A stretch of 31,989 bases of DNA from a virus (taxonomy: Duplodnaviria; Caudoviricetes). The DNA is taken from positions 1 to 31,989 of the IMG/VR virus record IMGVR_UViG_3300020269_000025; one strand, written 5' to 3'. The translations under genes were made by a program, and so were the position numbers. Positions 7,075 through 17,657 of this stretch are shown in pieces. The notes below the pieces were generated by a model, which had not been told where the DNA came from, made no database searches, and saw only the letters and a list, made by a program, of their open reading frames with translations. The number at the start of each line of letters is the position of its first letter. Positions within the stretch are counted from its first letter, which is position 1.

Positions 7075-7235
7075 TATAATAATCCTTTTTTAGTGTTATC
7101 TACCGCTATCCTAATGTCAGGTTCAGGTTCAAATACAACCTCTATTTCTTCTTTTTTCTTCCTGATAGGTGCAGATTCTTTTTTTCTTAATAATTGTTTA
7201 CGAAACTGGTCAACAAATTCTAAATCTTTATTCAT
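7074..7235 (-). CDS. 53-aa hypothetical protein, not in ORF track
   Basis: MNKDLEFVDQFRKQLLRKKESAPIRKKKEEIEVVFEPEPDIRIAVDNTKKGLL; TAATG overlaps at both ends. Confidence 0.75.
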   Translation of the reverse strand: MNKDLEFVDQFRKQLLRKKESAPIRKKKEEIEVVFEPEPDIRIAVDNTKKGLL

Positions 7236-7435
7236 TAAACCAAATATTTCTTGTTTTTATTCTTTTCTGTAGCTGATCCAATCTGTAAACCAGCAGATGC
7301 ACCTGCTAAAGCACCGATCTTTCCTCTGTTTTTAATGAGTCTTTTACCAGTTTTTGTTCTAGCAAATGTTTTTGCACCAGCTTTTGCACCTCTTGCGAGT
7401 CCTAAAGCTGCATTCATTATTGATACATAAGCCAT
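7235..7435 (-). CDS. 66-aa Gly/Ala-rich basic peptide
   Basis: C-terminal half resembles the 6630..6791 peptide; coupled to neighbours. Confidence 0.72.
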   Translation of the reverse strand: MAYVSIMNAALGLARGAKAGAKTFARTKTGKRLIKNRGKIGALAGASAGLQIGSATEKNKNKKYLV

Positions 7436-7436
7436 G

Positions 7437-7577
7437 CTATTTACCTTTCTTTTTTTTCATGCCATTGGGCTTTTTCTTCATCCCATTAGGCTTTTTTTTG
7501 CCATTTGCCTTCTTTTTTGAAGCTATAATCTTCTCTTGAAGCTTCGGTGGCAGTGTTTTTTGTTTCTTAGTAAGCAT
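7437..7577 (-). CDS. 46-aa Lys-rich peptide with KKK(A/P)NG(M) repeats, not in ORF track
   Basis: MLTKKQKTLPPKLQEKIIASKKKANGKKKPNGMKKKPNGMKKKKGK. Confidence 0.75.
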   Translation of the reverse strand: MLTKKQKTLPPKLQEKIIASKKKANGKKKPNGMKKKPNGMKKKKGK

Positions 7578-7680
7578 TTTTCTTACCCTTCATCATTTTT
7601 TTCTTTTTTTTCTTAGCTTTTGCAGCCATCGCCTTACCTTTTTTCGTGTAAGGGTACTTTTTTCCGTTTACCATTGGCAT
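7567..7680 (-). CDS. 37-aa Lys-rich peptide, not in ORF track
   Basis: MPMVNGKKYPYTKKGKAMAAKAKKKKKKMMKGKKNAY; AGGAGG RBS. Confidence 0.8.
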   Translation of the reverse strand: MPMVNGKKYPYTKKGKAMAAKAKKKKKKMMKGKKNAY

Positions 7681-7681
7681 A

Positions 7682-7795
7682 TTAGCCTCCTATTATTGCT
7701 ATTATTAATATTAAAATAACGACTGCTGCCGCTATCTTATGCTTTTTCGATACTCCATCCCATTTCTCTTGGGCATAGTCCATCCATTTTCGCAT
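7682..7795 (-). CDS. 37-aa single-pass membrane peptide, not in ORF track
   Basis: MRKWMDYAQEKWDGVSKKHKIAAAVVILILIIAIIGG; AGGAG RBS; C-terminal hydrophobic helix. Confidence 0.75.
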   Translation of the reverse strand: MRKWMDYAQEKWDGVSKKHKIAAAVVILILIIAIIGG

Positions 7796-7796
7796 A

Positions 7797-7997
7797 TTAT
7801 TCTCCTATTTTGTTAAAAAGGGTACTTACCCCTTCTGATGCACCTTCTTGGTCATCCTCGTTGAAATTTGAGCCTTTAAAGATCAATTCTATCTTAGGAC
7901 TTGGCTCAATCTTATGTCCACTCATCTTTGAGTATGCTCTTGCTTGGGTGATACCAAAGTTATCTTCCCCAAATATTACATTACCTACTAATGGCAT
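7797..7997 (-). CDS. Hypothetical protein, first ORF of the leftward late operon
   Basis: 66 aa; AGGAGG RBS. Confidence 0.75.
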   Translation of the reverse strand: MPLVGNVIFGEDNFGITQARAYSKMSGHKIEPSPKIELIFKGSNFNEDDQEGASEGVSTLFNKIGE

Positions 7998-8344
7998 ATG
8001 TTGTTCCTCCTATGATTAGTCTCAATACAAACCCCCCTTTTATTATTACCGCTGCTTCGCAGCGGCATTGACGCCTATGGCGGCTTTAAAACCCCACCTT
8101 TTCGCTTTCTGCTTCGCATTCAAGCTTAAGGCTTTGTGGGTTTGATTTGTCTTATTGTTTTTATTATATGATTTGATTGTTGAAGTCTCAAACTTTTCAT
8201 GCATCAGATCATTTTATCGTCATCTTCTTCGTCTGTCCTTGCTTCTTTGTATGTTATGTGTGCAACACATAAATGCCTTATGCAGGTGTGCAAGGCTTCA
8301 TGTGTTGCTTTGCACATAACTAAATACAAATGAAAGGACAAACT
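7998..8344. promoter_or_regulatory. Divergent control region (late/early promoters; candidate origin or packaging start)
   Basis: ~350-nt gap between divergent operons; hairpins at 8049-8065, 8072-8082, 8110-8118 and 8246-8330; T-rich tract 8140-8175. Confidence 0.6.
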
Positions 8345-13363: not shown

Positions 13364-13498
13364 ATGATTACATTTGTATGTGGAGTAATACTTGGCTGGA
13401 TAGCAGCTCGTTCCTACCGTAAATCAAAAGAAGATGTCAAAGAGATGAGTGATGATGTCAAATCATTTCTTGGAAGATTTACTAAGAAAGACGAGTAG
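13364..13498 (+). CDS. 44-aa membrane-anchored peptide, not in ORF track
   Basis: MITFVCGVILGWIAARSYRKSKEDVKEMSDDVKSFLGRFTKKDE; overlaps the convergent gene by 36 nt. Confidence 0.6.
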   Translation: MITFVCGVILGWIAARSYRKSKEDVKEMSDDVKSFLGRFTKKDE

Positions 13499-13813
13499 GT
13501 CTGGGTTATCAATAAACAATAGAGGTTGGAGTATGTTGGTAGTATTTAGCACTACTCTTTCTTCTGTTGTATCATTAGATAAAGCCATACCATCATTTAC
13601 TTCACCTATAGTTTTGAAAACACAATGCATGATTTCATGCAATACTGTGTTTGCTTCCTCTTTTGGTGATAGTCCAGGTTGGATTTCTATTCTGTTTTCA
13701 CGATCTAGATACTGACCAAAACAATCAGTCATGTTATCTCTTTTAAAATCTGGCTTTGCGTAAGCTATCTCGATGGTCCTATAGCCTACTCTGATTTTCA
13801 TAGGTAGCTTCAT
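13463..13813 (-). CDS. HExxH zinc metallopeptidase-like protein (ImmA/IrrE-like)
   Basis: FGQY..IEIQPGL..NTVLHEIMHC..EERVV. Confidence 0.78.
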   Translation of the reverse strand: MKLPMKIRVGYRTIEIAYAKPDFKRDNMTDCFGQYLDRENRIEIQPGLSPKEEANTVLHEIMHCVFKTIGEVNDGMALSNDTTEERVVLNTTNILQPLLFIDNPDLLVFLSKSSKK

Positions 13814-16449: not shown

Positions 16450-16706
16450 GTAAATTAGATATAATGGAAGCAAAACTAAAGCTAAATGATTACTTGGCTA
16501 ATGCTCCTAAGAACTATTATTGCGAGGGTAAGTATACTGATAAGAATGGTAAGAGTAAACTTGTTGATGCTTTGGTCAAAGCTCATACAGCTGATCTTGC
16601 CAGACAAAAGTTTATTAAATACTTTAACAAAGATGAAGGTACAACAATTGTGACATCCTGTATTCGTAAGCCAGGATACATAGAAAAACAAGGAGGGATA
16701 CTATGA
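16446..16706 (+). CDS. Hypothetical protein
   Basis: 86 aa, overlaps both neighbours by 4 nt. Confidence 0.7.
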   Translation: MSKLDIMEAKLKLNDYLANAPKNYYCEGKYTDKNGKSKLVDALVKAHTADLARQKFIKYFNKDEGTTIVTSCIRKPGYIEKQGGIL

Positions 16707-17077
16707 GTTACGATCCAGCTAACTTTCAAAAAGAAGAAAAGAATATTAAGTTTTCAAAAGAAACTTCATTGGATGAAGGATCTGCTGAGAAAGCATATAA
16801 CTTTATGGCTAACAATCTTGACACTCTTGCTGAGTATGAAGAAGCAGCTGATCTTTTAGATAACTATACTAAGCATCTTGTAGATAATTTAGCTAGTATG
16901 ACTGAAGGCAGTGAAGCTGCTAAGAAAAGAACAGCTCATGCAGATACTGCATACAGAGTACATATTGAGAATCTAGCATTTGCTAAAGCAAGGTTTTCAA
17001 AGATGCGTAGATTATATGATCTAGCAAAAATAAGAATTGAAATGTGGAGAACTAAAGAAGCTTCTTCACGAATATAA
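16703..17077 (+). CDS. Helical conserved phage protein (possibly UvsY-like recombination mediator)
   Basis: SEAAKKRTAHADTAY..IEMWRTKEASSR; GGAGG RBS; function is tentative. Confidence 0.55.
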   Translation: MSYDPANFQKEEKNIKFSKETSLDEGSAEKAYNFMANNLDTLAEYEEAADLLDNYTKHLVDNLASMTEGSEAAKKRTAHADTAYRVHIENLAFAKARFSKMRRLYDLAKIRIEMWRTKEASSRI

Positions 17078-17437
17078 TATTCCAGCGGTCAATGGATAGA
17101 GAGAGGCATATGAATGCCTAGACTATAGTAAAGGAATAAGCACGCAAGGCTGACCAGCTTATGTCTCTCTCGTAAAATATTCCGGGCCAGGATACGAGTA
17201 CTGGTATATATAGAATGAAGTATAGGTATTTGCCCACTTCGTACTCGGTTTATTTGGTATCAGACTAAAAGACACCTACTAGTATTAGTATCACCCAGAG
17301 ATGTCTGACTAAGTTATGTCCTGGTGGTGTTAAAGAGAAAATAGCCAATTCGATATTCCTAAAGGATAGAGAGAGTAATTTATCTCTGGCTGTAATGTAG
17401 ACCTAGGTTGTCAGTCCTTAGATGCGTTATTCTCTCG
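17077..17437 (+). ncRNA. Candidate tandem array of pseudoknotted RNA units
   Basis: No ORF; ATATTCC-loop-GGATA recurs at 17077, 17177 and 17353, each followed by a long-range stem and a downstream complement of the loop; G-U pairs favour the plus strand. Confidence 0.68.
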
Positions 17438-17438
17438 G

Positions 17439-17657
17439 CTAGTCTAAGATTTTAATGATTCGTTTACGATCACCCATGTCGATTTCGATTTCTGCTTTGA
17501 CTTGTTGGCAGGACATAGATATGCCTTCCTGATTCTCACCGATCTGTCTTGTAACAATGCGTTTCTGTTCAAGGCAGTCAGCCATACCGCTTGTAGGGAC
17601 ATACTCTATAACCTTTCCATTCTGTATCATTAATATTGCAAATACTACTTCAATCAT
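17439..17657 (-). CDS. Hypothetical protein (hydrophobic N-terminus, two Cys)
   Basis: 72 aa; last gene of the late operon. Confidence 0.72.
   Translation of the reverse strand: MIEVVFAILMIQNGKVIEYVPTSGMADCLEQKRIVTRQIGENQEGISMSCQQVKAEIEIDMGDRKRIIKILD

What the first reader, a model, noticed from the sequence alone, without database searches (positions are those of the whole stretch)
17077..17437. Tandem array of 3-4 pseudoknotted RNA units with unit-specific loop pairings at the early/late convergence
Seen: the whole 360-nt gap has no ORF and repeats one topology. Unit A: ATATTCC 17077, loop containing GGTCA (17087-91), GGATA, stem GAGAGAG 17099-105/CTCTCTC 17165-71, inner stem AAGC/GCTT whose loop holds TGACC (17151-55). 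Unit B, exactly 100 nt later: ATATTCC, loop GGGC (17184-87), GGATA, stem CGAGTAC 17195-201/GTACTCG 17241-47, inner stem GAAGT/ACTTC with GCCC (17232-35) in its loop. Unit D: ATATTCC 17353, TAAA loop, GGATA, stem GAGAGAGTAA 17369-78/TTATTCTCTC 17427-36, with CTAA complementary to TTAG (17418-21). In A, B and D an AAT precedes the inner stem and a G follows the outer stem. Unit C lacks the sequence tag but keeps the shape: TTTGGT-ATCAG-ACTAAA, stem GACACC 17271-76/GGTGTT 17326-31, TCAG(AC) complementary to (GT)CTGA 17303-08. Stems and loop pairings change sequence while staying complementary, which is internal covariation; G-U pairs point to the plus strand. I do not recognise it as a tRNA, tmRNA or known ribozyme. 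Inference: a processed small-RNA array. Options are self-cleaving or nuclease-resistant RNAs, decoys in the manner of type III antitoxin pseudoknot repeats, or pRNA-like interlocking RNAs.
Basis: partly seen in the sequence, partly recalled or inferred. Interest (0 to 1): 0.88.

Follow-up and report, generated by a model that had tools for sequence, protein, structure and literature searches.

The report
Shuffled two-slot RNA cassettes in phages
Marine phages carry rows of small non-coding cassettes in which one fixed two-stem frame holds dozens of different, exchangeable inserts predicted to fold as RNA; they are likely cut out of early messenger RNA by host enzymes and likely act as decoys for host proteins, which would make them an undescribed, shuffled RNA toolkit.

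Summary
The element is real and non-coding, and no Rfam family reaches threshold. It is not four copies of one pseudoknot. Relatives (94 units from 42 loci) show one grammar: a first stem (AUAUU...AUA) runs straight into a second stem that starts with G and is followed by G-Y-U-A. Each stem encloses a variable payload: 28 payload families in slot 2 and 36 clusters in slot 1. The slots recombine independently, near-identical phages differ in unit number and order, and eight families are shared with other phage lineages. Many payloads are covarying pseudoknots, and several keep self-complementary loop hexamers, suggesting homodimers. No reverse transcriptase was found in 9 records, and no dedicated partner protein was established. 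Best reading (0.45): RNase P/E-type processing releases stem-protected small RNAs that bind host proteins as decoys. Processing, expression and targets are untested.

The parts
16703..17077 (+). Upstream 124-aa early gene of unknown family; the last base of its stop codon is the first base of the array
   Evidence: the same stop-codon abutting is seen at other array starts
17077..17098 (+). Unit 1, slot 1: AUAUU...AUA frame with a short loop (cluster A3; loop core GGUC here, GAUC in relatives)
17099..17176 (+). Unit 1, slot 2: 12-bp stem starting at G17099 and ending at C17171, tail G-UAA; payload family B3 with self-complementary ACUAUAGU (17122-29) and a small GCAA-loop hairpin
17177..17194 (+). 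Unit 2, slot 1 (A14); its loop holds the only GGCC of the window, and the stem-loop junction its only CCGG
17195..17250 (+). Unit 2, slot 2 (B14): 7-bp stem with an atypical C-G first pair. Unit 2 is absent from relatives that join unit 1 directly to unit 3
17251..17349 (+). Unit 3, slot 1 only (A7): closed by UGG 17255-57 / CCA 17345-47; multi-helix pseudoknot 17260-65/17303-08, 17272-76/17326-30, 17295-98/17321-24; palindrome 17277-84. It has no slot 2 here; relatives follow it with B8 or B9
17353..17368 (+). Unit 4, slot 1 (A8), minimal hairpin
17369..17441 (+). Unit 4, slot 2 (B5): 11-bp stem to C17436, tail GG-CUA overlapping the stop codon of the opposite gene; long hairpin tipped by CCUAGG (17402-07; CCAUGG in L005)
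17439..17657 (-). Convergent 72-aa gene at the end of the late (lysis-region) operon; flank only
13463..13813 (-). HEXXH metallopeptidase-like gene; a second array site lies beside it in relatives. Possible trans partner, weakly supported

Best explanation
The gap is a row of exchangeable cassettes in which a fixed two-stem frame holds variable payloads predicted to fold as RNA; the row is likely transcribed as part of early phage mRNA, likely cut by host RNase P before the G that opens the second stem and by a single-strand nuclease in the AU-rich linker, and the released stem-closed RNAs likely bind and distract host proteins such as defence factors. Shown: the frame, the two independent slots, gain, loss and reordering of units, sharing between phage lineages, and covarying payload helices. 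Inferred: transcription, the cutting enzymes, homodimer formation through self-complementary loops, recombination at the short conserved frame motifs, and the decoy role. No target is identified.
For: Grammar recovered in 94 units from 42 loci. Parser noise: 2 hits in 327 kb of shuffled DNA and 0 in 7 control records. Slot-2 first pair is G-C 59, G-U 22, C-G 2 of 83, followed by G 78, C/U 76, U 72, A 60 of 83. In the 43 distinct slot-2 stems from loci found by flanking proteins only, it is G-C 29, G-U 14, then G 41 of 43. This resembles an acceptor stem with discriminator and a CCA-like end. RNase P pairs its GGU with the RCCA end, cuts hairpin model substrates and phage C4 RNA, and the T4 tRNA-Ser precursor has UAA for CCA, though CCA is preferred (PMC11143913, passages). 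Slots shuffle independently: A6 occurs with B5, B7, B10, B13 and B8 with A4, A7, A11, A16, as expected if each slot works alone. Phages with 91-100% identical upstream proteins carry different arrays, and an empty site exists (L389 versus L387). Eight families are shared with phages outside the window's lineage. Arrays also sit between co-oriented genes and directly behind a sigma70-type promoter, so they are not terminators. Payload pseudoknots covary (B2+B4: 98.8% paired, 0 of 500 shuffles; B1; A7/A34). Precedent for phage RNA decoys: pseudo-ToxI (PMC3594212, passages) and Racrs (PMC10651486, abstract start).
Against: No unit ends in CCA (0 of 94). Slot-2 stems run 6-15 bp rather than a fixed 7 or 12. 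The base before the proposed cut is paired in slot 1 rather than single-stranded. The tail G is partly forced by my parser. No payload matched a host sequence: best E 0.005 per genome in 187 genomes of one streamlined alphaproteobacterial order, which may not be the host's order. ToxN was found in 0 of 61 genomes of that order, but the control rang nowhere either. Payloads are not enriched for the 4-mers the phage avoids. One slot pair (A1/B1) never separates. No read ends or strand data were available.
Confidence: 0.45

Rival explanations
1. The payloads are self-assembling RNAs: self-complementary loops join copies into dimers or, in an uncut array, multivalent networks with a structural or compartment-forming role.
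For: Self-complementary loop hexamers are kept through compensatory change, including G-U wobble: B2 GAUAUC/GUCGAC/GGCGUC, B3 CUAUAG/ACUAGU, B5 CCUAGG/CCAUGG, A5, B9; A2-type UACGUA/UGCGCA/CAGCUG/CACGUG and CAGUUG. 8-mer palindromes occur in 21 of 64 families versus 12.0 +/- 3.1 in shuffles (0 of 300). Symmetric kissing loops exist in OLE and GOLLD (PMC12286853, passages).
Against: 6-mer counts are not significantly raised (55 versus 45.5, P 0.07; whole arrays 80 versus 72.8). 43 of 64 families lack an 8-mer palindrome. Dimerising is compatible with the decoy reading and does not explain the diversity.
Confidence: 0.17
2. The cassettes act in cis as processing and stability elements that tune decay or translation of the early transcript.
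For: Arrays begin at the stop codon of the upstream gene, lie between early genes or at a transcript start, and 3'-closed stems would slow exonucleases (general knowledge).
Against: A cis signal needs neither 28+36 payload families nor up to six units in a row. Sites can be empty in close relatives, and the same payload moves between unrelated genes and lineages.
Confidence: 0.15
3. The units are self-cleaving ribozymes or ligand-binding aptamers (for ions, metabolites or immune signal nucleotides) collected on a common frame.
For: Compact pseudoknots and three-way junctions with invariant unpaired bases (A1/B1). Arcs of this size and shape are typical of riboswitch aptamers and small ribozymes (general knowledge).
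Against: No Rfam ribozyme or riboswitch model scored at E up to 10 on the window gap or on 12 related loci. The payloads share no common catalytic core.
Confidence: 0.13
4. The units are templates or substrates for an enzyme acting in trans: a reverse transcriptase as in UG27 arrays, or an RNA ligase that would seal the abutting 5' and 3' ends into dumbbell circles.
For: UG27 arrays are variable, gain and lose units, and have a basal hairpin plus a main hairpin (bioRxiv 10.64898/2026.09.22.753630, sections 9-11). In this frame slot 1's 3' strand runs directly into slot 2, so the two free ends meet at one junction.
Against: No RVT_1 match in 9 of 9 array-bearing records, 5 of them at least 90% complete, and none annotated among 49 window proteins. 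Unit lengths and motifs differ from UG27. No back-joined unit appeared in the RNA contigs of six runs, which is weak evidence.
Confidence: 0.1

Closest known systems
UG27 reverse-transcriptase ncRNA arrays (bioRxiv 10.64898/2026.09.22.753630; abstract and sections 9-11 read)
   Same: Phage-borne intergenic arrays of structured units with short conserved motifs and variable interiors; related loci gain and lose units; function of the products unknown.
   Different: No reverse transcriptase or conserved three-gene module here. Two independently exchanged slots with unrelated folds, not one common fold. Slots are 16-140 nt, not about 150-nt units, and the motifs differ.
Pseudo-ToxI of phage PhiTE and type III antitoxin repeats (PMC3594212, passages)
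   Same: Phage-encoded tandem pseudoknot RNAs whose copy number changes by recombination; the model for a decoy role.
   Different: ToxI arrays are near-identical 36-nt repeats aimed at one toxin. Here payloads are unrelated and enclosed in stems, no ToxI model scores, and no cognate toxin was found (control silent).
Phage non-tRNA substrates of RNase P: C4 antisense RNA of P1/P7, phi80 M3 RNA (PMC11143913, passages); T4 RNAC and RNAD (PMC3014915, passage)
   Same: Small phage RNAs with acceptor-like ends cut from longer transcripts (C4, M3), or small phage RNAs of unknown role (RNAC, RNAD).
   Different: Those are single fixed RNAs. Here the ends are G-YUA, never CCA, no tRNA gene is in the window, and no convincing antisense target was found in 964 kb of related phage DNA.
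OLE, ROOL and GOLLD ornate RNAs (PMC12286853, passages)
   Same: Intermolecular kissing loops, some symmetric, supported by covariation.
   Different: Those are single RNAs of many hundred nucleotides with a fixed architecture; these are small exchangeable modules.
Rfam mcrA motif (RF03010)
   Same: Weak match (E 6.4, 15 bits against a cut-off of 57.6) to the A1 payload in L044, sharing a UGACGA loop and AACUACGGAUA.
   Different: Far below threshold, A1 is absent from the window, and the motif's description could not be read (supplement too large).

Membership tests
Any Rfam family (ribozymes, riboswitches, ToxI, tRNA, tmRNA) | Score at or above the gathering threshold | tested here: not met
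   0 hits in the window; best E 10 near the gap; best E 3.7 in 12 related loci; ARAGORN 0
UG27 RT array | Linked reverse transcriptase with two accessory ORFs | tested here: not met
   RVT_1 0 of 9 records; YxDD-like strings occur only in a few long proteins, not followed up. A very divergent RT could escape RVT_1
UG27 RT array | Variable array with gain and loss of units | tested here: met
UG27 RT array | cDNA made from the central hairpin | not testable with these tools
   needs ssDNA sequencing
Type III antitoxin or pseudo-ToxI repeats | Tandem near-identical repeats of about 36 nt, each an H-type pseudoknot | tested here: not met
   Units share only the frame; longest direct repeats in the gap are 15-16 nt; 28 and 36 payload groups
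Type III antitoxin or pseudo-ToxI repeats | Cognate ToxN-type toxin in phage or host | tested here: inconclusive
   0 of 61 genomes of one candidate order, control silent, host unknown
RNase P substrate (acceptor-like hairpin) | Helix starting at G+1 with a purine discriminator | tested here: met
   G at +1 in 81 of 83 and G after the stem in 78 of 83; 43 of 43 and 41 of 43 in loci found by flanking proteins; parser favours G after the stem
RNase P substrate (acceptor-like hairpin) | 3' RCCA | tested here: not met
   0 of 94; commonest tails CUA 34 and UUA 23 of 83
RNase P substrate (acceptor-like hairpin) | Cleavage 5' of G+1 | not testable with these tools
   only assembled contigs of RNA runs were available
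Antisense RNA (C4-like) | Complementary target in the phage genome | tested here: not met
   Outside arrays only 15-23-nt hits at E 0.007-0.04 in 964 kb; host targets tested in one order with one array only
Intrinsic terminator | GC-rich hairpin followed by a U tract | tested here: not met
   none in the gap; arrays also lie between co-oriented genes

The most novel reading that the evidence does not exclude
Marine phages keep a shared, recombining library of small RNA effectors: a universal host-processed frame lets any folded RNA be plugged into two slots, and each payload, often as a homodimer, blocks a different host defence or RNA-binding protein or captures a signal molecule. This would be the RNA-only counterpart of anti-defence protein islands, needing no phage enzyme.
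Probability: 0.35. Interest if true: 0.95.

Novelty: categorically new. Interest (0 to 1): 0.82.

Why it matters
Known phage RNA countermeasures (pseudo-ToxI, Racrs) copy one host RNA each. This is a general carrier with tens of interchangeable structured payloads moving between phage lineages that probably infect very abundant marine bacteria. If the decoy reading holds, each payload is a ready bait for finding an unknown host defence or regulator. Whatever the function, the catalogue adds many undescribed small RNA folds with natural covariation, and a natural frame for expressing structured RNAs.

Tried and rejected
Restriction-site decoys: the window avoids CCGG, GGCC, GCGC and ACGT (observed/expected 0.03-0.12), but payloads are not enriched for them (12 observed, 20.2 expected). 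Global palindrome enrichment in whole arrays was not significant. Cross-slot kissing loops were rejected. Terminators and an internal promoter: scans equal shuffles. Host homologues: genome-collection pattern scans gave chance matches only, and 187 genomes of one order gave nothing convincing. The HEXXH alignment found no relative in cellular genomes. Isolated phages: no match to the window gap or to the L044 array. Dedicated protein partner: the HEXXH protein is in 8 of the 9 other array-bearing records compared (absent from a 17%-complete fragment), but two records at least 92% complete have it without a parsed array, and many arrays were found through it. Its model is a weak IrrE/PprI-like match (E 0.026). 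Expression: contigs of RNA runs X4 and X6 cover array units in other orders, but one runs into the opposite-strand gene, contigs show no strand or ends, and DNA carry-over is not excluded; shares of words were 0.05-0.10 for six of seven runs. Two pair counts used mis-numbered columns and are discarded (redone in 117 and 133). Hammerhead, pistol, HDV and glnA resemblances were judged by eye from recalled layouts and rejected; only the Rfam scans test them. The host was not determined. The Atlas search for the HEXXH protein did not complete. Literature: ten searches found no description of this family. Three of the supplementary files of PMC10690425 were not searched and the supplement of PMC5737381 could not be read; either may list single payloads as candidate motifs.

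Full report
Setting. The window is a 32-kb marine podophage-type record with capsid, portal, terminase and lysis genes. Its capsid protein is 42-47% identical to those of Pelagibacter phage HTVC106P, Methylophilales phage Venkman and rhizobial phages, and the lysis region matches two pelagiphages weakly. A SAR11 or OM43 host is an inference; it was not determined. The gap 17077-17437 lies between a plus-strand early gene and the end of the minus-strand late operon.

Observation check. Rfam, at threshold and at E up to 10, and ARAGORN find nothing. From the window alone the folding signal is modest (array z -1.9; only unit D strong at -3.3), so relatives were needed.

Relatives. I collected loci with the upstream protein (11 loci), the HEXXH protein (7 and 80 loci), a nuclease that follows some arrays (80 loci, one further unit) and DNA patterns. 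Most pattern hits were chance and were dropped after inspection. A grammar parser returned 78 units from 42 loci. I removed 2 false units in coding DNA and added 18 missed units by coordinate or motif, giving 94 units, 86 distinct. Units with slot 1 only, such as the window's unit C, are not among the 94. L024 and L044 are the two ends of one contig, and L001 and L003, identical to the window in the gap, were left out.

Anatomy. Each unit is AUAUU-[stem and payload 1]-AUA, then directly G-[6-15-bp stem and payload 2]-C/U, then G-Y-U-A and an A-rich linker. In 68 distinct slot-1 sequences the five leading bases are 62-68 of 68 conserved, and the first variable pair is C-G 43, U-A 21, U-G 1, unpaired 3. 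In 83 distinct slot-2 stems the first pair is G-C 59, G-U 22, C-G 2. A version of the parser gave 2 hits in 327 kb of shuffled DNA and none in 7 control phage records, with 3 spurious-looking hits in real records. Units fold better than shuffles (median z -2.4; 25 of 42 tested below -2, every second one of 84) and better on the array strand (67 of 84).

Modularity. Payloads fall into 28 slot-2 families and 36 slot-1 clusters; the clustering threshold is arbitrary and some clusters clearly merge. Slots recombine independently, except A1/B1, which always occur together. Phages whose upstream protein is 91-100% identical to the window's carry different arrays: L002 lacks unit B and adds another, L004 starts with A1/B1, L005 has only two units. 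L008 has no array at this site but has one elsewhere. L389 has an empty site where L387 has two units. Arrays hold one to six units, start at an upstream stop codon in most cases inspected, lie at convergent junctions, between co-oriented genes or right behind a TTGACA-17-TATTAT promoter, and several phages have two arrays. Eight families are shared with phages that have few genes in common with the window, including a fragment with a different gene set. Exchange by recombination at the 11-17-nt frame motifs is inferred; unit B is bounded by a 4-base repeat.

A: second pair broken in 6 of 7, no compensation. D: 35% paired. All combinations: no excess complementarity. B: untestable. C: the two inner helices are right and belong to a larger pseudoknot inside slot 1; the 5' hairpin is not supported by compensation.

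Payload structure. B2 and B4 share a pseudoknot helix with a C-G/U-A switch in 6 of 13 sequences. B1 has a helix, a hairpin and a loop pseudoknot, nearly all pairs kept in 10 of 10 sequences with compensatory changes. These counts come from related sequences and from structures I read off the alignments, so they are supportive, not probabilities. Several families keep a self-complementary loop hexamer while changing its sequence, with G-U variants that make sense for RNA and not for double-stranded DNA. 8-mer palindromes are enriched (21 of 64 families versus 12.0; 0 of 300 shuffles) but 6-mers are not; this was one of four measures tried. Six of the window's seven modules have such a core, with predicted self-duplexes from -2.7 to -15.0 kcal/mol (no shuffled control). 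Homodimers are inferred.

Partners and targets. No reverse transcriptase profile match in 9 records. The only non-structural early protein shared across the lineages compared is the HEXXH protein, but it also occurs without a parsed array, so the link is open. No antisense target in related phage DNA, no host homologue in the genomes searched, no enrichment of avoided restriction-type 4-mers. RNA-run contigs contain array units but cannot show expression, strand or ends.

Mechanism. The slot-2 stem looks like an acceptor stem: G+1, a purine after the stem and a tail that could pair with RNase P's GGU by wobble (inference from PMC11143913, passages). A cut before G+1 and a cut in the AU-rich linker (RNase E preference recalled, not from a call) would free both payloads as separate stem-closed RNAs, which fits their independent shuffling. 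The absence of CCA, the variable stem length and the paired leader count against a textbook substrate. Fast turnover of accessory content at early loci, shared between co-occurring phages, is the usual pattern of host-interaction modules (general knowledge), and phage RNA decoys exist. I give the processed-decoy reading 0.45, self-assembly 0.17, cis processing 0.15, ribozymes or aptamers 0.13, enzyme templates or circles 0.10.

Novelty. No family membership test was passed. The nearest published system, UG27 arrays, needs a reverse transcriptase that was not found here. Ten literature searches found no description (listed under Tried and rejected); two supplements that list candidate motifs could not be fully searched. 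Earlier notes of this scan describe swappable RNA cassettes in other marine and gut phages; sequence look-ups with the window gap and the L044 array found no look-alike among them, and they are unchecked leads, not support. Verdict: a real, apparently undescribed kind of element with an untested function; interest 0.82.

Noticed in passing
window 13463-13813 (-): HEXXH metallopeptidase-like protein (weak IrrE/PprI fold) shared at 42-71% identity by array-bearing phages of different capsid lineages; its close clade is absent from isolated pelagiphages in the phage collection.
   Followed up: partly
whole window: Strong avoidance of CCGG, GGCC, GCGC and ACGT (observed/expected 0.03-0.12), with different subsets avoided in relatives, pointing to host restriction systems; G015 lacks GATC, ACGT, GCGC, GGCC and CGCG altogether.
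   Followed up: partly
L419, L406, L381, L387, L385, L588 (A2-type slot-1 payload, 134-140 nt): The largest payload; its conserved loop carries a self-complementary hexamer in five different versions, the clearest homodimer candidate.
   Followed up: partly
L062:170-218 (-), L043, L153, L393 (B10) and B7 family: Payloads with a 7-nt loop closed by AGG/CCU that resembles a tRNA T-arm (resemblance recalled).
   Followed up: no
L044:861-892 (-): Weak match of the A1 payload to Rfam mcrA (RF03010); that motif may derive from a related element.
   Followed up: partly
G006 ends (L044 and L024): One contig begins and ends with two different versions of the same array, suggesting array variants within one phage population or an assembly overlap.
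   Followed up: no
L047, L059, L064, L099: In a phage with a different gene set the array starts a few bases behind a sigma70-type promoter, so the transcript would begin with the frame's 5' end.
   Followed up: partly
window 7075-8329: Gap in the 70-aa ORF list that holds several short, lysine-rich minus-strand frames and the divergent early/late promoter region.
   Followed up: no
L537 (contig of a single-cell assembly labelled Poseidoniales): Carries an 81% identical lysis-region protein of this phage group; probably a co-sorted virus rather than host evidence; no array parsed.
   Followed up: partly
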